A stretch of DNA of 64,000 nucleotides from a virus (IMGVR_UViG_3300045988_175328:163220-227219); one strand, 5' to 3'. Counted from the first letter of the stretch, positions 11,274 to 46,805 are shown. Translations and numbers: made by a program. Notes: generated by a model from the letters alone, not told the origin.

Positions 11274-11293
11274 ACTAACAAAAAGGATTGTTA

Positions 11294-13666
11294 ATGTCAG
11301 AAAATATTAAAGATATTCGATTAGTTACTGCCGAAAAATATAAAGAGTTTACGACAGATAATATATCTGACGATAACATTGCATATCTTATCAATTCTGG
11401 TGAACTTCTTCTTAAAACAGAATTTGATACGTTCAAAGAAACAGTTCCGACAAAAGAACAAGTTTCTTCGACATATGCAGAAAAAACATCTTTAGCTCCT
11501 TACGAAACTAAAGAGAATGCCGAAGCTCTTTATTTAAAAAAGAGTGACGCAGAAACTACGTATTTGCAACCAAAAGATTTAGAAAATATTCCTAAAAAAT
11601 CTGACTTAAATCTATATCTTACAAAAGAATCGGCTTCTTCTGCTTACGCGACAAAAGAAGAAATAGGTACTTTTATTACGACAGAAACTGCAGAGAGAGC
11701 TTTTCTAAAAAAAGAAACTGCCGATTCTACGTATGCAGCAAAATCTGAAATTCCAGATGTAAGCTCTTTTCTTACAAGTAAAACGGCAGAAGAAACATAC
11801 GCTAAAAAAGATCAGCTCAATAATTTATTAACGACAGATGTCGCTGACTCTACGTATTTAAAACAAGACACTGCGTCTTCTACATATGCATTAAAATCAG
11901 AGATTCCGGCTTTAGATCCGTATGTAACAAAAGATTCAGCGAACTCTACATATGCCTTAAAAACAGATCTTAACAATATACCGACAGAAGCATCTATTTC
12001 TGAAACATACGTAAAGAAAACAGATCTTAACCTCGATACATATGTAACGAAAGATACAGCGTCTTCTACTTACGCGACAAAAGAAGAGTTAACTCCTCTT
12101 TTAAGATCTGCTTCTGCCGAAGAAACGTACCTTAAAAAAGCTGACCTTAATCTTGATCCATACTTAACTAAAGATACGGCTTCTTCCTCTTATGCGACTA
12201 AAAATGAAATCGCTAATTTCTTAACGGAAACATCTGCCGATTCTTCTTATGCTAAGAAAGAAGAGTTAACTCCTCTTTTAACAACAGCCGCTGCCGAAGA
12301 AACATATCTTAAGAAGAATGATGTTCATCTCGATACATATCTTACAAAAGATACAGCATCTTCAACTTATGCATTAAAAACAGATCTTACTCCATTTGTG
12401 ACAACTGAATCTATTGAAGCTACTTATTTAAAGAAATCTGATAGCGAAAATTTCTTAACTAAGAATATTGCTTCTTCTACATACTTAAGTAAAACTGATG
12501 CTGAGTCTCTTTACATTCCTAAAACAGAAGAACAATCTTTCTTAAAAACAGAAACTGCAGATTCTGTATATTTAACTAAAAATGATGCAGAGTCTACTTA
12601 TATGAAAAAAGGATCGGCGCTAACTGAAGAAGAAGCGAATTCTCTTTTCGCCAAAAAATCAGAAATCCCGACTGGTTATGCTGCGCAATCAGAAGTAGAA
12701 TCGACATACTTAAAAAAATCTGATGCAGAGTCCACGTATTTAAAGACAGCAACGGCTGCTTCTACGTACGCATTAAAATCTCAGATTCCTTCTGCCGATA
12801 CGTTCGTAACGAAAGAATCGGCTGAAAAAACATATTTAAAATCTGCTGATGCTGATACTAAGTATGCTTTAAAATCTGAGGTTGGTTCTTCTACAGCAAG
12901 CGGTTCTTTTACAAAAGAAATAGCCGATAACACATATTTATCGAAAGAGACTGCAGAATCTACATACTTAAAAACAGCAACAGCTGCTTCTACGTATGCG
13001 TTAAAATCTAGTATCCCTTCCTTATCTGATTATTTAACAAAAGATTCGGCGGCATCTACATATTTAACGACCGCAAAGGCCGATGAAGTTTATCAAAAAA
13101 AATCAGAATTAATTACTGCTCTTGATAACTATGTTACAAAAAAACTTGCGAACGAAACTTTTGTTACACAAGATTCTTTAAATAAACAAAAAGTTCTACT
13201 TCATTCTATAAAAGAAATTACTCCGCAAGGCGTTAAAGGTACTGCTAAGATTTCTTTTAATCGTACTGATAATATTGTTCAAGTAACATTTGGCGGTCTT
13301 TCTTGGGGCATGTTCAATGTTCTTCCATTTGATCAACTCAAGAAAACTCGTGAAGTAAATGGATATAAATGGTTCATGTTCACGAAAACAAGCAACAACC
13401 GAGATTACACTCATACTCATGTTGTTCCTGAAGGATATCGATCTGAAGGTTCCGTCATTACAACAATCTGTCTCGATAGCGGCGAACCGATCGGAACTAT
13501 GTATCTCGGCGGCAAAGATGATATGAATATTATTGTACTTCGTATTGCTAACGATAAAGTACAAAGTGCTCTTGACAAAGGATTCCGAGTATCCCCAGCA
13601 TTCTATCTTACTACCGATGCTCTTCCTCAAGAAACACGCGGTAATAAAATTCAGGTACCACAATAA
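11294..13666 (+). CDS. repeat-rich tail fibre protein
   Basis: 790 aa from ATG 11294 (track ORF starts at TTG 11288); many copies of a ~14-aa motif [ST]AxSTYAxK[ST][ED]L; non-repetitive C-terminal domain. Confidence 0.8.
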   Translation: MSENIKDIRLVTAEKYKEFTTDNISDDNIAYLINSGELLLKTEFDTFKETVPTKEQVSSTYAEKTSLAPYETKENAEALYLKKSDAETTYLQPKDLENIPKKSDLNLYLTKESASSAYATKEEIGTFITTETAERAFLKKETADSTYAAKSEIPDVSSFLTSKTAEETYAKKDQLNNLLTTDVADSTYLKQDTASSTYALKSEIPALDPYVTKDSANSTYALKTDLNNIPTEASISETYVKKTDLNLDTYVTKDTASSTYATKEELTPLLRSASAEETYLKKADLNLDPYLTKDTASSSYATKNEIANFLTETSADSSYAKKEELTPLLTTAAAEETYLKKNDVHLDTYLTKDTASSTYALKTDLTPFVTTESIEATYLKKSDSENFLTKNIASSTYLSKTDAESLYIPKTEEQSFLKTETADSVYLTKNDAESTYMKKGSALTEEEANSLFAKKSEIPTGYAAQSEVESTYLKKSDAESTYLKTATAASTYALKSQIPSADTFVTKESAEKTYLKSADADTKYALKSEVGSSTASGSFTKEIADNTYLSKETAESTYLKTATAASTYALKSSIPSLSDYLTKDSAASTYLTTAKADEVYQKKSELITALDNYVTKKLANETFVTQDSLNKQKVLLHSIKEITPQGVKGTAKISFNRTDNIVQVTFGGLSWGMFNVLPFDQLKKTREVNGYKWFMFTKTSNNRDYTHTHVVPEGYRSEGSVITTICLDSGEPIGTMYLGGKDDMNIIVLRIANDKVQSALDKGFRVSPAFYLTTDALPQETRGNKIQVPQ

Positions 13667-43615: not shown

Positions 43616-43707
43616 GTCCGGCATTTGTTGTTTTTGGATATATTTTAGTATTATTATTAATTGCGGCCATTTTATGGGCGCTAGAAATACTATTATTTAA
43701 CAAGTAA
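43612..43707 (+). CDS. possible 31-aa hydrophobic peptide
   Basis: TTG start 5 nt after GAGGTG, overlaps previous stop; SPAFVVFGYILVLLLIAAILWALEILLFNK. Confidence 0.35.
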   Translation: MSPAFVVFGYILVLLLIAAILWALEILLFNK

Positions 43708-43733
43708 TTTATTCTTTAAAAAGGAGAACTCTC

Positions 43734-44189
43734 ATGAACTTAGTAACTAAAGAAATAATCTTAACTCGACTCGATAAAAAAGGTGCACTAAGTGCACTTG
43801 AATCAACTATTGAAAAATTTCATGAAGAATATCATAATAATAAATATAATTTTAAAGATGTCGATAATCATATTGAAGAATTTAAATTATATAATGGAGA
43901 GTTATTCTATCGCTCTACTAACGATATTAATATTGACTTAAATACATTAAAAAATAGTAACGATGAGTATGTAATTAATGATTTAATGCGATTAAAATCT
44001 TCAGTAAATCTAGCTCTTCTATTAAAAGAAAAGAATTTTAATATGATTCCAGTACCAGAAGATCTTTTAGATAATCTATATCTTAATATAAAACTATTCT
44101 TAAAAACAATTGAACGAATCGAGTTAGCATTAGAAGCTCTCAATCGAGCCGATACTATTCTTAATGGAGAGGATGGCTTCCGAGTCTAA
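43734..44189 (+). CDS. hypothetical protein
   Basis: 151-aa ORF, AAAGGAG RBS. Confidence 0.7.
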   Translation: MNLVTKEIILTRLDKKGALSALESTIEKFHEEYHNNKYNFKDVDNHIEEFKLYNGELFYRSTNDINIDLNTLKNSNDEYVINDLMRLKSSVNLALLLKEKNFNMIPVPEDLLDNLYLNIKLFLKTIERIELALEALNRADTILNGEDGFRV

Positions 44190-44411
44190 TGAAATACCGT
44201 CAAATTGTTAAAACGGTAGCACATGCTTGTATTAACTATAAATTAAGTCTTCCTATAGACTTTAAATTAATTTTAACAAGAACTTCGTGCATGTTGTATG
44301 CTAAAGGAGAGAATGATGCTACATTTAAAGGTCGACTAATTTTATTGAAATTCAGAACTAACACTCGTGATTTTAATCATGAGATACAGTTTTGGAAATT
44401 AGTAAGCCTGT
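44189..44411 (+). CDS. exon 1 of a small gene interrupted by an IStron
   Basis: ORF 44189..44413; its TAG stop is created by the intron, since the predicted 5' splice site follows T44411. Confidence 0.6.
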
Positions 44412-44815
44412 AGGGAAACTTGCAGGTAGAAATAGCTTTTAGCTATTCAACGAAGAAACTGAATTGCTGGGAACCCCTAAAGCTCAATTAACTACAATAT
44501 AGATTTGAAATATAATCAAGTATGAATGTGGCGAAAGCAGAAAAAATAATTGAGATAAGATATGGTTAAACCCTAAGTCTTAAGATAATGGGCAATCAGC
44601 AGCGAAGCTCCGAATAGGAGAACGTTCAACGACTATTCCTCGTGAGGGAAGTACACCGTAAGCGATTGACGGTGGAAGTGGTGTCGCCTAAGTCGCAATA
44701 GCGATATGGATAAGATATAGTCTGTGCTTATGCGAAAGTATAAGATGCGCGTAATGGCGCTGGTTAGGAATAGCGATCCTGATTGAACGAGACCTCACAA
44801 AACATGGTTCTAAAA
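44412..44815 (+). ncRNA. group I intron catalytic core
   Basis: P1 hairpin 44407-44426 with GAAA loop and U44411-G44422 wobble; P aattgctgggaa 44462-73; Q aatcagcagc 44594-603; R gttcaacgacta 44624-35; S aagatatagtct 44712-23; several GNRA hairpins. Confidence 0.8.
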
Positions 44816-44908
44816 TGTCCTGTAAAAGTTTTACTGAAAAGTTGTTTTTTAGTAAAAGTATGTTATAATAATCTCGTAATATAGTAATTAGAAAGCGAGG
44901 TGATAATA

Positions 44909-46159
44909 ATGTATGTAAATATGAAGCAACAGGTAAAACATCTAACAAAAGAAAAATACAATATCCTAAGAGAATTATGTAGGACTGCTAAGAATTTAAA
45001 AAATGAAGCAATTTATAATATTCGACAACATTATTTTCAAGAAAAACAATACTTGAGATATGAGTCGAATTATCATGAACTAAAGTATTCTGAAAATTAT
45101 AAGCTTTTAAATTCTAATATGGCACAACAAACTCTCAAGGAAGTTGATACAATGTTTAAATCATTCTTTGCTTTGATTAAAATGGCAAAGCAAGGAAAGT
45201 ACAGTTTTAAGCATATACGATTACCTAAGTATCTGCCTAAAAATGGATATTCAAATTTAATCATTGCACAATTTAAAATTAAAGATGGTATTTTAACTAT
45301 TCCAGTTTCTAATGCTTTTAAGGAAAAGCATGATATGAAAATTCAGATCAAAATTCCCAAAGCATTAGAAGGTAAAAAGATTAAACAGATTCAAATTATA
45401 CCTAAATTTAATGCTAGGTTCTTCGAGATTCAATATATATATGAAGTTCAAGAAGAAGATTTAAAATTAGATACCAACAATGCACTGGCTATTGATTTGG
45501 GAGTTAATAATTTGTGTACTTGCGTTACAAACGCTGGTAGATCTTTTATTATCGACGGAAGGAAGTTAAAATCTGTTAATCAATTCTTTAACAAGAATTA
45601 TGCTAAACTACAATCTATTAAAGACAAACAGCGTATCAAAAGACAGACGAAACAACAATATTTAATTTCTCTTAAGAGAAAGAATAGGGTTAACGATTAT
45701 ATCAATAAAACATGTCGATATATCATAAACTATTGCTTATCTAATAATATCGGAACTTTAGTTATTGGTTATAATCAGTCATTTCAATGTAAAACTAATT
45801 TAGGTAGGAGAAACAATCAAATTTTTACTCAATTGCCATTTGGTAAGATTCGAGAAAAATTAGAATATTCGTGCAAACGATATGGTATTAATTATATCTT
45901 ACAAGAAGAATCTTACACTTCTAAAGCTAGTTTTTTTGATAATGATGAGTTACCTATTTATAATGCTGACAATCCACAGGAATATGAGTTCAGTGGAAAG
46001 CGTGTTAAAAGAGGATTATACCAGACTAAAGATGGTTATCTTTTTAATGCAGATTGTAACGGCGCATTAAATATTCTTCGTAAAAGTAGCGTTGTAGACC
46101 TTAGTGTCTTATACAGTAGGGGCGATCTGGACACGCCTAAAAGAATAAGGATCTTTTAA
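44909..46159 (+). CDS. tnpB: TnpB-like RNA-guided endonuclease (IS200/IS605 OrfB family)
   Basis: 416 aa from ATG 44909 (GAGGTG RBS); RuvC triad contexts AIDLGVNN, LQEESYTSK, FNADCNGALNILR; no CxxC zinc-finger pairs. Confidence 0.9.
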   Translation: MYVNMKQQVKHLTKEKYNILRELCRTAKNLKNEAIYNIRQHYFQEKQYLRYESNYHELKYSENYKLLNSNMAQQTLKEVDTMFKSFFALIKMAKQGKYSFKHIRLPKYLPKNGYSNLIIAQFKIKDGILTIPVSNAFKEKHDMKIQIKIPKALEGKKIKQIQIIPKFNARFFEIQYIYEVQEEDLKLDTNNALAIDLGVNNLCTCVTNAGRSFIIDGRKLKSVNQFFNKNYAKLQSIKDKQRIKRQTKQQYLISLKRKNRVNDYINKTCRYIINYCLSNNIGTLVIGYNQSFQCKTNLGRRNNQIFTQLPFGKIREKLEYSCKRYGINYILQEESYTSKASFFDNDELPIYNADNPQEYEFSGKRVKRGLYQTKDGYLFNADCNGALNILRKSSVVDLSVLYSRGDLDTPKRIRIF

Positions 46160-46230
46160 GATCAAACTTCTTAATAAAATAACTTTAAGTTATTTTTAGA
46201 ACCATGTGATTTTAATCATGTGAGGTTCAG
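46040..46230 (+). ncRNA. predicted omega-RNA scaffold / intron 3' segment (5' boundary approximate)
   Basis: by analogy with TnpB systems; agaaccatg (46198-206) and tgtgagg (46219-25) pair with catggttct (44803-11) and cctcaca (44793-99). Confidence 0.4.
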
Positions 46231-46373
46231 TGAATCGAGATATTGATCTTAATGAATATAGCGCTTACGACCAAATTGTGTATAAAACAGTAGAATCATA
46301 TTTAATTAAAAATCAGGAGGCATTCTCTAAGTTTAATACATTAGTCGGCACTATTGAATCTGAAGTAGAATAA
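46231..46373 (+). CDS. exon 2 of the IStron-interrupted gene
   Basis: T44411 + TG46231-32 gives Leu, then NRDIDLNEYSAYDQIVYKTVESYLIKNQEAFSKFNTLVGTIESEVE stop; splice after G46224 would also be in frame. Confidence 0.55.
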
Positions 46374-46416
46374 AAAAGATGACCCTGTATTTTTAAATTA
46401 CAGAGTCATCTTTTTA
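46371..46416. terminator. bidirectional intrinsic terminator
   Basis: A-run, gaccctgta...tacagagtc stem, T-run; serves the split gene (+) and the HU gene (-). Confidence 0.8.
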
Positions 46417-46451
46417 GTCTATAGTAACGAGCTGATATTTGTATGTCAGGA

Positions 46452-46730
46452 TTATTTATTTAAAGCTTCTTTTAAAGCTTTAGCTGGTTTGAAAGCTACA
46501 GCTTTTTTTGCAGCGACTTTCATTTTTTCGCCAGTTTGTGGATTACGGCATTCGCGAGCTTTACGTTCACGAGATTCGAAAATGCCGAAACCATGTAAGC
46601 TAACTTTATCTCCTTTTACAAGAGATGTAGTTACTGTTGCTAATACATCTTCAACTAAAGCTGTAATAGCTTTTAAAGTTAATTCAGGATGTTTAGCAGC
46701 AACTGCTTTAATTAATTCTTGTTTATTCAT
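46452..46730 (-). CDS. hup: HU-family histone-like DNA-binding protein
   Basis: 92 aa; MNKQELIKAVA...GDKVSLHGFGIFESRERKARECRNPQTGEKMKVAAKKAVAFKPAKALKEAL aligns along its whole length with bacterial HU and SPO1 TF1. Confidence 0.9.
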   Translation of the reverse strand: MNKQELIKAVAAKHPELTLKAITALVEDVLATVTTSLVKGDKVSLHGFGIFESRERKARECRNPQTGEKMKVAAKKAVAFKPAKALKEALNK

Positions 46731-46776
46731 TTGTATCTCCTTTCTTATAAGTCAATAAGTAGCATGAGAAATACCT

Positions 46777-46805
46777 ATTATAGATTAAAATGTTTCTTGC
46801 AAGAA
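46777..46805 (-). promoter_or_regulatory. candidate promoter of the HU gene
   Basis: minus strand TTCTTG, 17-nt spacer, TATAAT. Confidence 0.5.

What the first reader, a model, noticed from the sequence alone, without database searches (positions are those of the whole stretch)
44189..46373. IStron (group I intron + tnpB) interrupting a small phage gene, with frame-restoring splice sites
The region 44412-44815 contains the four classical group I core elements in order. They are P aattgctgggaa (44462), Q aatcagcagc (44594), R gttcaacgacta (44624) and S aagatatagtct (44712). S matches AAGAUAUAGUC of the Tetrahymena intron, and R and S can pair as gactat/atagtc to form P7.
Several GNRA-capped hairpins are present, for example cttatgc-GAAA-gtataag.
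A P1 hairpin (44407-44426, GAAA loop) places a U-G wobble at T44411-G44422. This predicts the 5' splice site after T44411, inside the apparent TAG stop of ORF 44189..44413.
Two helices close around the tnpB ORF: cctcaca 44793-99 with tgtgagg 46219-25, and catggttct 44803-11 with agaaccatg 46198-206.
Splicing to G46230 gives ...KLVSL-L-NRDIDLNEY...ESEVE, a continuous protein of about 121 aa. Splicing at G46224 is also in frame.
Chimeric intron-IS elements are known from C. difficile (CdISt1), B. cereus (BcISt1) and C. botulinum. Here one sits in a phage gene, where splicing would hide the insertion while TnpB and its guide RNA could promote retention.
Basis: partly seen in the sequence, partly recalled or inferred. 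Interest (0 to 1): 0.8.

Follow-up and report, generated by a model that had tools for sequence, protein, structure and literature searches.

The report
IStron splitting a jumbo-phage gene

Summary
The finding is real, and "IStron" is the right name. One boundary is wrong.

**Boundaries.** The element is 44346..46230 (1885 bp). It lies after the target motif TTTAT (44341-45) and ends in TCAG, as published for group A (IS200/IS605-type) IStrons.

**Empty alleles.** Five intron-less alleles from related ~225 kb phage contigs encode a 99-aa protein. It is gaplessly collinear with 44189-44345 + 46231-46373. That junction stays in frame only because 66 is a multiple of 3.

**P1.** The true P1 pairs UUUAU with GUAAG (44402-06). 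Across 33 homologues TTGAT pairs with GTCAG/GTTAG and xTTAT with GTAAG.

**Intron fold.**
- 43 homologues support it: 87.5% of cells paired against 36-44% in slid controls.
- Rfam RF00028 scores 55.9 bits once its speed filters are relaxed.

**Other parts.**
- TnpB is intact. It lacks the zinc finger and belongs to a clade with a relocated RuvC-II glutamate.
- A covarying omega-RNA scaffold overlaps the 3' splice site.
- No tnpA is present.

**Novelty.** IStrons, including phage-borne ones, are already described, and 54 of 64 IMG/VR hits show the same intron followed by tnpB. This is a new member of a known kind.

The parts
44189..44345 (+). Exon 1 of the 99-aa phage gene (codons 1-52 plus the first base of codon 53)
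   Evidence: Gapless collinearity with the intron-less alleles P0001-P0005 and locus L006. The listed ORF 44189..44413 (74 aa) runs on into the intron.
44341..44345 (+). TTTAT: transposon-adjacent motif (TAM), 5' strand of P1; 5' splice site after U44345
   Evidence: TTGAT or ATTAT sits at the same place in homologues. TAM and internal guide sequence covary in 33 elements. TTTAT is one of the three published group A targets (PMC4227781).
44346..46230 (+). The IStron (1885 bp): group I intron, tnpB, omega-RNA and right end
   Evidence: Its removal restores a 300-nt ORF that is 93.7% identical to the empty allele L006. Left-end and right-end homology stops exactly at these bases.
44346..44406 (+). 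Extended P1 stem: left-end subterminal hairpin 44364-83 at the tip, internal guide sequence GUAAG at 44402-06
   Evidence: The minimum-free-energy fold has z = -7.19 and pairs 44342-48 with 44399-405. The hairpin CTCGTGA..TCATGAG is conserved in homologues. It also folds as DNA.
44407..44426 (+).
   Evidence: 99.7% of cells are paired and 7 of 8 pairs covary (helix 4). It lies 3' of the internal guide sequence.
44431..44447 (+). P2.1 hairpin
   Evidence: All 7 pairs show compensatory changes (helix 5).
44455..44784 (+). Ribozyme core P3-P9.2: P3 44455-60/44680-85; P4 44465-70/44596-601; P5 44474-76/44590-92 with P5abc inside; P6 44602-04/44623-25 and P6a; P7 44630-35/44718-24; P7.1 44636-50; P7.2 44654-74; P8 44687-709; P9 44727-44; P9.1 44747-60; P9.2 44762-84
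   Evidence: Covariation on 43 homologues. RF00028 scores 55.9 bits over 44402-44744. P7.1/P7.2 and P9.1/P9.2 are the marks of subgroup IA2 (PMC4227781).
44785..44790 (+). GAACGA motif marking the junction between intron core and IS component
   Evidence: Named as the conserved junction motif of all IStrons in PMC4227781. It is conserved in alignment A4.
44791..44811 (+). 5' inverted repeat: GACCUCACA (44791-99) and CAUGGUUCU (44803-11), which pair with the right end
   Evidence: The duplex with 46195-46230 is -29.4 kcal/mol and 0 of 500 shuffles reach it. Compensatory variants occur in L012 and L004.
44909..46159 (+). tnpB (416 aa from ATG 44909, with Shine-Dalgarno GAGGTG at 44897-902; the mechanical ORF starts at GTG 44900)
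   Evidence: Pfam. NCBIfam guided_TnpB scores 197 bits against a cut-off of 100. A clade profile matches ISDra2 TnpB 8BF8 at E = 9e-46. Gene calls on the identical contig L008 give 416 aa.
46009..46230 (+). Omega-RNA-like scaffold overlapping the 3' end of tnpB and the right end; terminal stem at 46199-46228
   Evidence: Consensus fold of 10 homologous 3' ends: 47 pairs, 18 of them compensatory, 96% of cells paired against 33-43% in slid controls.
46227..46230 (+). TCAG terminus of the element; G46230 is the terminal guanosine of the intron (omega-G), the 3' splice site
   Evidence: Right-end homology in 6 or more IStrons stops after TTCAG. This is the published group A rule (PMC4227781).
46231..46246 (+). 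Predicted 16-nt guide of the omega-RNA (TGAATCGAGATATTGA)
   Evidence: Inferred from the position immediately 3' of the scaffold. The empty alleles L015 and L016 carry TTTAT plus this exact 16-mer.
46231..46373 (+). Exon 2 of the 99-aa gene (the listed GTG-ORF 46230..46373 is not a separate gene)

Best explanation
Bases 44346-46230 are a group A (IS200/IS605-type) IStron. It is inserted, in the sense orientation, after the motif TTTAT inside a 99-codon gene of a ~227 kb phage.

**RNA level (inferred).** The host-gene transcript folds into a subgroup IA2 group I ribozyme. P1 pairs the last five exon bases UUUAU (44341-45) with the internal guide sequence GUAAG (44402-06), giving a U44345-G44402 wobble. 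An external guanosine cleaves after U44345. A 9 + 9 bp inverted-repeat stem (44791-99 with 46219-27; 44803-11 with 46198-206) loops out the 1.4 kb tnpB module and brings G46230 to the core. The exons are then ligated to ...GRLIL-L-NRDID..., restoring the 99-aa protein.

**DNA level (inferred).** The element has the left-end and right-end subterminal hairpins of an IS200/IS605 transposon but no tnpA. It can therefore move only with a TnpA supplied in trans.

**Retention and spread (inferred).** The element encodes an intact TnpB and a structured omega-RNA whose scaffold ends at G46230 and whose guide is the first ~16 nt of exon 2. TnpB with this RNA should cut IStron-free alleles (TTTAT + TGAATCGAGATATTGA). 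Repair from an IStron-carrying genome, for example in a co-infection, would then copy the element in.

**Competition between the two RNA roles.** The omega-RNA terminal stem (46199-228) and the intron's inverted-repeat stem use the same bases. Splicing and guide-RNA formation are therefore mutually exclusive, as shown experimentally for a C. botulinum IStron.

**Shown here:** the boundaries, homology, RNA folds by covariation, empty alleles and an intact ORF. **Inferred:** splicing activity, TnpB activity and homing.

**How the confidence splits.** The overall figure of 0.85 covers identity, boundaries and splicing. Taken separately: identity and boundaries about 0.95, splicing competence about 0.8, TnpB-driven homing about 0.5.
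For: **Boundaries**
- Five 99-aa intron-less alleles, 88-94% identical with 100% coverage, align without gaps.
- The DNA of exon 1 + exon 2 is 93.7% identical to L006. The 1 kb flanks are 96-98% identical and the gene order is the same.
- Left-end homology begins right after TTGAT, ATTAT or TTTAT. Right-end homology ends at TTCAG in all homologues.

**P1**
- TTGAT goes with GTCAG (12 elements) or GTTAG (4). xTTAT goes with GTAAG (17).
- The minimum-free-energy fold gives the same helix, z = -7.2.

**Ribozyme**
- E = 1e-60 to IStron introns of C. difficile, C. botulinum and E. faecium, and to endonuclease-carrying phage introns.
- Over 131 pairs, 87.5% of cells are paired against 36-44% in slid controls. 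92 pairs show changes on both sides against 38-56, and 0 of 500 shuffles reach the observed values.
- RF00028 scores 55.9 bits, above its gathering score of 50.

**Inverted-repeat stem**
- The duplex is -29.4 kcal/mol, against -9.7 for the right-end hairpin alone.
- Compensatory variants are seen in other elements.

**TnpB**
- Family hits. A profile of the clade matches ISDra2 TnpB at E = 9e-46.
- RuvC-I D196, RuvC-III D382 and a clade-invariant alternative glutamate E334 are conserved (416-aa numbering).

**Omega-RNA:**

**Same rules elsewhere:** the same splice rules restore ORFs at paralogous insertions in related phages (L091, DNA pol III alpha, 516 aa; L092, 499 aa).

**Published rules met:** the rules for group A IStrons in PMC4227781, PMC13565253 and bioRxiv 10.1101/2023.11.20.567912 are all satisfied.
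Against: - No RNA or biochemical data exist for this element. Splicing, TnpB cleavage and homing are all inferred.
- One P3 pair is an A-G mismatch (44457/44683).
- The canonical RuvC-II glutamate (E278 of ISDra2) aligns to an asparagine, and the C4 zinc finger is absent. Nuclease activity rests on a published but untested argument that such clades use a relocated glutamate (PMC10691335).
- The intron and exon 2 both begin with TGAA. Empty-site comparison alone therefore leaves a 4-nt ambiguity. It is resolved only by requiring a U before the 5' splice site and a terminal G, together with homology.
- No tnpA lies in the window, so present-day transposition is unproven.
- Rfam missed the intron under default filters.
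Confidence: 0.85

Rival explanations
1. One reading: the same IStron, but with the 5' splice site after T44411 (P1 is the hairpin 44407-26), giving a 121-aa protein.
For: The hairpin has a U-G wobble and the junction is in frame. The U-G in this hairpin is conserved in 38 of 43 homologues.
Against: - All five intron-less alleles lack the 22 codons.
- 44346-44406 is homologous to the left end of other IStrons, whose flanks diverge only upstream of TTGAT.
- TAM and internal guide sequence covary.
- A U-G that is conserved whatever the flanking exon is a structural feature of P2, not a splice-site pair.
Confidence: 0.02
2. A decayed or non-splicing insertion. The IS200/IS605-type element simply knocked out a dispensable small phage gene, and the intron no longer splices, or splices too poorly to matter.
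For: The gene is small and of unknown function, with no Pfam or PHROG hit. There is one mismatch in P3. There is no expression data.
Against: - Apart from that one P3 mismatch, every helix of the core pairs in the window copy, and the invariant P7, J8/7 and P7.1 bases are intact.
- Both exons remain open and in frame. Their 93.7% nucleotide identity to the empty allele is close to that of the flanks (96-98%).
- The identical 74-aa read-through ORF is found on 10 contigs from several samples.
- Paralogues sit in genes likely to be essential, such as DNA pol III alpha, which would not tolerate a non-splicing insertion.
Confidence: 0.08
3. The intron splices, but TnpB is not a nuclease here. Its RuvC-II glutamate and zinc finger are lost, so it acts only as an RNA-binding regulator of splicing, or is on its way to exaptation. 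The element then persists by vertical inheritance alone.
For: The canonical glutamate aligns to asparagine and the zinc finger is absent. Inactivated, exapted TnpBs are documented (PMC10691335). TnpB binding represses splicing in the C. botulinum IStron (bioRxiv 10.1101/2023.11.20.567912).
Against: - RuvC-I and RuvC-III aspartates and the alternative glutamate E334 are invariant across representatives 35-57% identical.
- The published view is that such rearranged clades stay active (PMC10691335).
- Paralogues 83-93% identical lie at different gene sites in related phages, each with a different guide-position sequence after TCAG. That pattern fits ongoing mobility.
Confidence: 0.15

Closest known systems
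Group A IStrons (CdISt1 of Clostridioides difficile and relatives; Braun 2000, Tourasse 2014 PMC4227781)
   Same: - A homologous IA2 intron (73-75% identity over 400 nt to C. difficile copies).
- The same order of parts: TAM, P1 with left-end hairpin, core, GAACGA, inverted repeat, tnpB, right end, TCAG.
- The same right-end sequence GTGAYTTTARTCATGKGAGGTTCAG.
- A T-rich pentanucleotide target.
- tnpA commonly missing.
   Different: - The TnpB is only 17-20% identical. It belongs to a different clade, without a zinc finger and with a rearranged RuvC-II.
- The target is TTTAT rather than TTGAT, with a matching A in the internal guide sequence.
- No tnpA remnant at all.
- The host is a ~227 kb phage rather than a bacterial chromosome.
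IS607-type (group B) IStrons: CboIStron (bioRxiv 10.1101/2023.11.20.567912) and CbISt3/4 of C. botulinum phages c-st and D-1873 (PMC4227781)
   Same: The same three-function logic (splicing, transposon ends, TnpB with omega-RNA), with the omega-RNA overlapping the 3' splice site. The intron is related and is detected by the same models. Some are phage-borne.
   Different: A serine-recombinase TnpA, a TGGG target with G rather than U before the splice site, a ...CGG terminus, long AU-rich inverted repeats, and an omega-RNA of the RAGATH-18 type. None of these is present here.
Classical phage group I introns with homing endonucleases (T4 td, Staphylococcus phage Twort; here Enterocloster phage CB457P2 with an I-TevI-like gene, and Thomasclavelia phage TR-TP1 with an HNH gene)
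   Same: A homologous IA2 core (up to 77.6% identity over ~220 nt; annotations). Located in phage genes. The expected spread is by cleavage of intron-less alleles during co-infection.
   Different: The nuclease is RNA-guided (TnpB), not protein-guided. It lies 3' of P9.2 rather than in a peripheral loop. The element also carries transposon ends.
ISDra2 (IS200/IS605) TnpB and its omega/reRNA
   Same: The TnpB fold and RuvC-I and RuvC-III residues align over the full length (E = 9e-46). The TAM is of the TTGAT family. The guide RNA is made from the right end. Both ends have subterminal hairpins.
   Different: ISDra2 has no intron, has a canonical RuvC-II glutamate and a zinc finger, and carries tnpA.

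Membership tests
Group I intron, subgroup IA2 | P1 formed by the 5' exon end and an internal guide sequence, with a U-G wobble at the splice site | tested here: met
   UUUAU 44341-45 pairs with GUAAG 44402-06, giving U44345-G44402. TAM and guide sequence covary in 33 elements. The minimum-free-energy fold agrees.
Group I intron, subgroup IA2 | Conserved core P3-P9 with the P3/P7 pseudoknot and the P, Q, R, S elements | tested here: met
   Covariation statistics. RF00028 scores 55.9 bits against a gathering score of 50. P7 and J8/7 are invariant.
Group I intron, subgroup IA2 | Extra helices P7.1/P7.2 and P9.1/P9.2 | tested here: met
   P7.1 is invariant. P7.2, P9.1 and P9.2 covary (helices 19 and 23-25).
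Group I intron, subgroup IA2 | Terminal guanosine (omega-G) at the 3' splice site | tested here: met
   G46230 is the last base of the conserved TTCAG, and the junction restores the ORF.
Group I intron, subgroup IA2 | Self-splicing with guanosine | not testable with these tools
   Needs in vitro transcription and splicing, or RT-PCR.
Group A IStron (Tourasse 2014) | Inserted after TTGAT, ATTAT or TTTAT, and ending in TCAG | tested here: met
   TTTAT at 44341-45 and TCAG at 46227-30.
Group A IStron (Tourasse 2014) | IS component 3' of P9.2 after a GAACGA-type motif, enclosed by a 6-10 bp inverted-repeat stem | tested here: met
   GAACGA at 44785-90. A 9-bp stem joins 44791-99 to 46219-27, with a second 9-bp helix beside it.
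Group A IStron (Tourasse 2014) | IS200/IS605-type subterminal palindromes at both ends | tested here: met
   Left end 44364-83 and right end 46199-228. The two are similar to each other and to homologues.
Group A IStron (Tourasse 2014) | ORF B (TnpB) present; ORF A (Y1 TnpA) optional | tested here: met
   TnpB is intact. No TnpA lies in the element or the window, which is an accepted variant.
TnpB RNA-guided nuclease (IS200/IS605 OrfB) | RuvC catalytic triad D-E-D | tested here: inconclusive
   D196 and D382 are present. The canonical glutamate position holds N289. An alternative glutamate, E334, is invariant in the clade. Activity of such clades has been argued but not tested (PMC10691335).
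TnpB RNA-guided nuclease (IS200/IS605 OrfB) | C4 zinc finger between RuvC-II and RuvC-III | tested here: not met
   There are no CxxC pairs in the region 338-380. Loss of the finger in some large TnpB branches is published (PMC10691335).
TnpB RNA-guided nuclease (IS200/IS605 OrfB) | Structured omega-RNA overlapping the 3' end of tnpB and the right end, followed by a guide | tested here: met
   47 pairs, 18 with compensatory changes, 96% of cells paired. Existence of the RNA itself is not shown.

The most novel reading that the evidence does not exclude
In this ~225 kb phage lineage, a family of IStrons without tnpA may spread purely by RNA-guided intron homing between co-infecting phages. The nuclease would be a virus-associated TnpB clade with no zinc finger and a rearranged RuvC-II. 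That would make TnpB the functional equivalent of the classical phage homing endonucleases. The natural alleles carrying TTTAC, or mismatches at guide positions 2 and 6, would then be escape variants.
Probability: 0.35. Interest if true: 0.6.

Novelty: new member of a known kind. Interest (0 to 1): 0.35.

Why it matters
**For annotation.**
- The 74-aa and 47-aa ORFs are really one 99-aa gene.
- The same correction applies to many phage records. One example is the split "portal protein" of Bacillus phage vB_BceH_LY2.
- Default Rfam filtering misses these introns.

**For biology.**
- The locus offers a natural matched set: an IStron-carrying allele, perfectly targetable empty alleles, and alleles with TAM or seed mismatches, all in one phage lineage.
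- That set could be used to test whether TnpB drives intron homing in phage crosses.
- It could also test whether the RuvC-II-rearranged, zinc-finger-less TnpB clade is an active nuclease.

The concept itself (IStrons, their splice rules, the conflict between omega-RNA and intron) is already published.

Tried and rejected
- **Rfam, first passes.** Rfam on the whole window and on 44100-46500 at E <= 10 returned no group I hit. This was a speed-filter false negative.
- **Close relatives.** megablast of 43700-46800 against GenBank phages found nothing, so no close cultured relative is known.
- **The 99-aa protein.** Pfam and PHROGs gave no family for it or its neighbours.
- **TnpB against PDB.** phmmer with the single sequence found nothing. 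A clade profile was needed.
- **Structure prediction.** AlphaFold2 on TnpB with a shallow 28-sequence alignment gave mean pLDDT 43. On the 99-aa protein it gave pLDDT 56. Both are too poor to use, so no fold search was run and the geometry of the relocated glutamate could not be checked.
- **Promoters and terminators.** The scan found 28 promoter-like sites against 20 expected, so it is uninformative in this AT-rich DNA.
- **Rfam on the right end.** No omega-RNA or RAGATH-18 family matched.
- **tnpA and further copies.** tblastn for a Y1 TnpA, and searches for further IStron copies in the window, found none.
- **P10.** A general P10 pairing does not hold. Only 3 bp are possible here, and there is none in L001 or L091.
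Full report
**1. The observation**

- P is at 44462-73, Q at 44594-603, R at 44624-35 and S at 44712-23.
- The GAAA hairpin is at 44727-44. The hairpin 44407-26 has the U44411-G44422 wobble.
- The two long-range complements are 44793-99/46219-25 and 44803-11/46198-206.

ORF 44900..46159 is a TnpB.
- Pfam gives OrfB_IS605 at 3.5e-30 and Cas12f1-like TNB at 2.3e-9.
- NCBIfam guided_TnpB scores 197 bits against a cut-off of 100.

Rfam at first gave nothing, neither at gathering threshold on the window nor at E <= 10 on 44100-46500. When only 44395-44800 is searched, RF00028 aligns full length (model 1-253) to 44402-44744 with 55.9 bits (gathering score 50) and E = 1e-13. The earlier blanks were speed-filter losses. 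In a control run, homologous IStron introns scored 66.5 bits (E. faecium) and 85.1 bits (Bacillus phage LY2), while two Clostridial copies were also missed.

**2. Homologues show what it is**

blastn of 44400-44900 finds 340 phage and 43 plasmid records at 67-78% identity. What lies next to the intron homologue differs by record.

| Records | What accompanies the intron homologue |
|---|---|
| C. difficile and C. botulinum plasmids | followed by tnpB |
| E. faecium and E. gallinarum plasmids | followed by tnpA + tnpB |
| Paenibacillus larvae plasmid | followed by a tnpB 62-63% identical to the window's (identity) |
| Bacillus phage LY2 | splits the portal gene |
| Enterocloster and Thomasclavelia phages | same core carries an I-TevI-like or HNH endonuclease instead |

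These are the IStrons and the classical IA2 phage introns of the literature (PMC4227781; bioRxiv 10.1101/2023.11.20.567912).

**3.

- In the three Clostridial copies the conserved left end starts directly after TTGAT. In E. faecium it starts after ATTAT.
- The window aligns to that left end from 44346 on, preceded by TTTAT at 44341-45. The alignment includes the hairpin CTCGTGA-TTTTAA-TCATGAG at 44364-83.
- TTGAT, ATTAT and TTTAT are exactly the three published group A targets, and TCAG is the published 3' terminus (PMC4227781). The window ends TTCAG at 46226-30.
- Right-end homology in six other IStrons stops exactly there, as it does in 24 distinct elements.

**4. Empty alleles settle it**

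- A search with the 99-aa product of 44189-44345 + 46231-46373 returned five proteins, all exactly 99 aa, 88-94% identical with 100% coverage, on contigs up to ~225 kb. They align without a gap.
- Locus L006 has the same gene order: a 151-aa gene, the 99-aa gene, then a convergent HU-like gene.
- Its 300-nt gene is 93.7% identical to the joined exons, and the 1 kb flanks are 96-98% identical.
- The element is therefore 44346..46230 (1885 bp).
It is in frame only because 66 is divisible by 3.
- The intron and exon 2 both start with TGAA. The empty-site comparison alone allows a 0-4 nt slide. Only the zero-slide position gives a U before the 5' splice site and a G at the intron end, and only it matches the homologues.

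**5. P1**

- The real P1 pairs UUUAU (44341-45) with GUAAG (44402-06), giving a U44345-G44402 wobble. It continues with U46-A01, G47-U00 and A48-U99.
- It is a long irregular stem with the transposon's left-end hairpin at its tip. This is the arrangement described for group A IStrons (PMC4227781).
- RNAfold finds this helix unaided, with z = -7.19.
- Across the aligned homologues, the third base of the target and the third base of the guide sequence covary without exception. TTGAT goes with GTCAG (12) or GTTAG (4), and (T/G)TTAT goes with GTAAG (17, including the window).
It is paired in 99.7% of cells, and 7 of its 8 pairs covary.

**6. Ribozyme fold**

I wrote an IA2 structure for the window with 131 pairs: P1, P2, P2.1, P3-P9.2 and the P3/P7 pseudoknot. 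Only one pair in the window is non-standard, A44457-G44683 in P3. I then counted it on 43 sequences less than 93% identical to each other (alignment A4).

| Measure | Structure | Partners slid by 1-3 columns |
|---|---|---|
| Cells forming a standard pair | 87.5% | 36-44% |
| Pairs with changes on both sides | 92 | 38-56 |
| Covariation score | 0.445 | 0.06-0.10 |

No shuffle out of 500 reached any observed value. P7 and P7.1 never vary, so they say nothing either way. The structure was derived from one of the aligned sequences, which favours it somewhat in the percentage of cells paired. The compensatory counts are less affected.

**7. The 3' part**

- After the GAACGA motif (44785-90), GACCUCACA (44791-99) pairs with UGUGAGGUU (46219-27), and CAUGGUUCU (44803-11) pairs with AGAACCAUG (46198-206).
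- The duplex is -29.4 kcal/mol and 0 of 500 shuffled partners reach it. The right-end hairpin alone is -9.7 kcal/mol.
- Other elements keep the stem with different bases: L012 has AGUUUCACA/UGUGAAGCU and L004 has ACUCCACA/UGUGGAGU.
- The last ~220 nt of the element (46009-46230) fold, in ten IStrons with the same TnpB type, into a conserved multi-hairpin RNA. It has 47 pairs, 18 of them compensatory, and 96% of cells are paired against 33-43% in slid controls. That structure was predicted on the same alignment.
- Its terminal stem (46199-46228) uses the same bases as the intron's inverted-repeat stem. The intron form and the guide-RNA form therefore exclude each other. This is the antagonism demonstrated for the C. 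botulinum IStron and hypothesised there for IS200/IS605 IStrons (bioRxiv 10.1101/2023.11.20.567912).

**8. TnpB**

- The likely start is ATG 44909, giving 416 aa, with GAGGTG 7 nt upstream. This matches the gene call on the identical contig L008.
- It is only 17-22% identical to the TnpBs of Clostridial and enterococcal IStrons, and 62-63% identical to the P. larvae one.
- A profile of its clade matches ISDra2 TnpB (8BF8/8EXA) at E = 9e-46 over the full length.
- In that alignment RuvC-I D196 and RuvC-III D382 are conserved, but ISDra2 E278 aligns to N289 in a conserved G-x-N motif.
- A glutamate 45 residues further on (E334, in "EESYTS") is invariant across 30 representatives 35-57% identical, and across 28 close relatives.
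- The C4 zinc finger is absent.
- This matches the "RuvC-II rearranged" clades described by Altae-Tran et al. 2023. They argue that an alternative glutamate compensates, and that several such branches are virus-associated (PMC10691335). Activity is therefore plausible but not shown.
- My AlphaFold2 model was too poor (pLDDT 43) to check the geometry.

**9. Context and spread**

- The window is phage-like. Almost all genes are on one strand, tail and tail-fibre families are present, and there are no tRNAs.
- The identical sequence lies on a 227,241-bp metagenomic contig.
- The 74-aa read-through ORF occurs on 10 contigs.
- More than 120 protein clusters 83-93% identical to this TnpB lie mostly on 200-238 kb contigs, some labelled Caudoviricetes.
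- Three of these were examined and sit in other genes: DNA pol III alpha (L091) and AAA-ATPase-like genes (L092, L094). Each follows ATTAT or TTTAT and ends in TTCAG. In L091 and L092 the same splice rule restores ORFs of 516 and 499 aa.
- In IMG/VR, the invariant core motif occurs in 64 stretches. 54 of them show a tnpB 0.2-0.7 kb downstream, 43 of the Clostridial type and 11 of the window type. Nine of the other ten are cut short.
- No tnpA and no second copy lie in the window.

**10. Target alleles**

| Empty allele | TAM | Match to the 16 nt after G46230 |
|---|---|---|
| L015, L016 | TTTAT | perfect |
| L006 | TTTAT | mismatches at positions 2 and 6 |
| L017, L018 | TTTAC | mismatch at position 2 |

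If TnpB is active, the first two alleles are cleavable and the others may be resistant. Five alleles are too few for any statistical claim.

**11. Verdict**

This is a bona fide group A IStron in a phage gene, with corrected coordinates 44346-46230 and a 99-aa spliced product. Every published defining feature that sequence can show is met.

It differs from the type elements in its TnpB clade, its TTTAT target and its jumbo-phage host. IStrons in phages were already listed in 2014 (C. botulinum phages c-st and D-1873, PMC4227781). A 2026 review already notes that IStrons without tnpA could spread by intron homing (PMC13565253).

It is a new member of a known kind, of moderate interest. Its main uses are as an annotation correction and as a convenient natural test system.

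Noticed in passing
window 44395-44800: Rfam RF00028 misses this intron under default and 2.4-kb 'evalue' filters, but scores 55.9 bits when only 406 nt are searched. Two Clostridial IStron introns were missed in the same way in a 42-kb call. Genome-wide Rfam scans will under-call IStron introns.
   Followed up: yes
IMG/VR loci L027-L090; window 44909-46159: The same IA2 intron and the same right-end sequence are joined to two very different TnpB clades. The Clostridial type has a zinc finger (43 loci). The window type has no zinc finger and a rearranged RuvC-II (11 loci). The two are only 17-20% identical to each other.
   Followed up: partly
L091 1941-3821; L092 1928-3824; L094 1938-3827: Related ~225-228 kb phage contigs carry paralogous IStrons (TnpB 85-93% identical to the window's) inside DNA pol III alpha and AAA-ATPase-like genes. 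In L091 and L092 splicing at TAM|...TCAG| restores ORFs of 516 and 499 aa.
   Followed up: partly
L012 (ERZ784456 NODE_860, coverage ~3x): L012 is identical to the window up to the invariant intron core. It then switches to a different 3' half without an ORF (right end 403 nt after the core motif) and a different 3' flank. This is probably an assembly chimera between paralogous IStrons. It also shows that a mini-IStron without tnpB exists in this population.
   Followed up: partly
window 44346-49 and 46231-34: The intron and exon 2 both begin with TGAA. This gives a 4-nt ambiguity in the empty-site comparison. It also allows a 3-bp P10 with A44401, U44400 and U44399. Other copies (L001, L091) lack this, so it may be coincidence.
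   Followed up: partly
L006, L015-L018 (empty alleles), position equivalent to window 44341-45 and 46231-46: Two empty alleles match TAM and guide perfectly. Three carry TTTAC or mismatches at TAM-proximal guide positions (2, or 2 and 6). These could be resistance variants. The sample is too small to test.
   Followed up: partly
L005 (Bacillus phage vB_BceH_LY2, ON366411.1 111537-115010): The portal gene is annotated as two 'portal protein' CDS around two 'transposase' CDS. The gap holds a group I intron (RF00028, 85 bits) and a RAGATH-18 RNA (70.9 bits). This is an unannotated IStron, apparently of the IS607 type judging by the RAGATH-18 match.
   Followed up: partly
window 46374-46415: A long hairpin (AAAAAGATGACCCTGTA...TACAGAGTCATCTTTTT) lies between the end of the 99-aa gene and the convergent HU-like gene. 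It is a candidate bidirectional terminator, and it explains the weak microRNA-model hits.
   Followed up: no
window 46452-46730 (-): An HU/IHF-family DNA-binding protein gene (Pfam Bac_DNA_binding, 1.7e-31) is the only clear minus-strand gene in a run of plus-strand genes. It keeps this position in all related contigs.
   Followed up: no
window 11288-13666: The C-terminal ~135 aa of this 792-aa protein resemble tail fibres of Streptococcus prophages (35% identity, E = 1e-10). This is a weak hint about the host. No close relative exists among GenBank phages.
   Followed up: no
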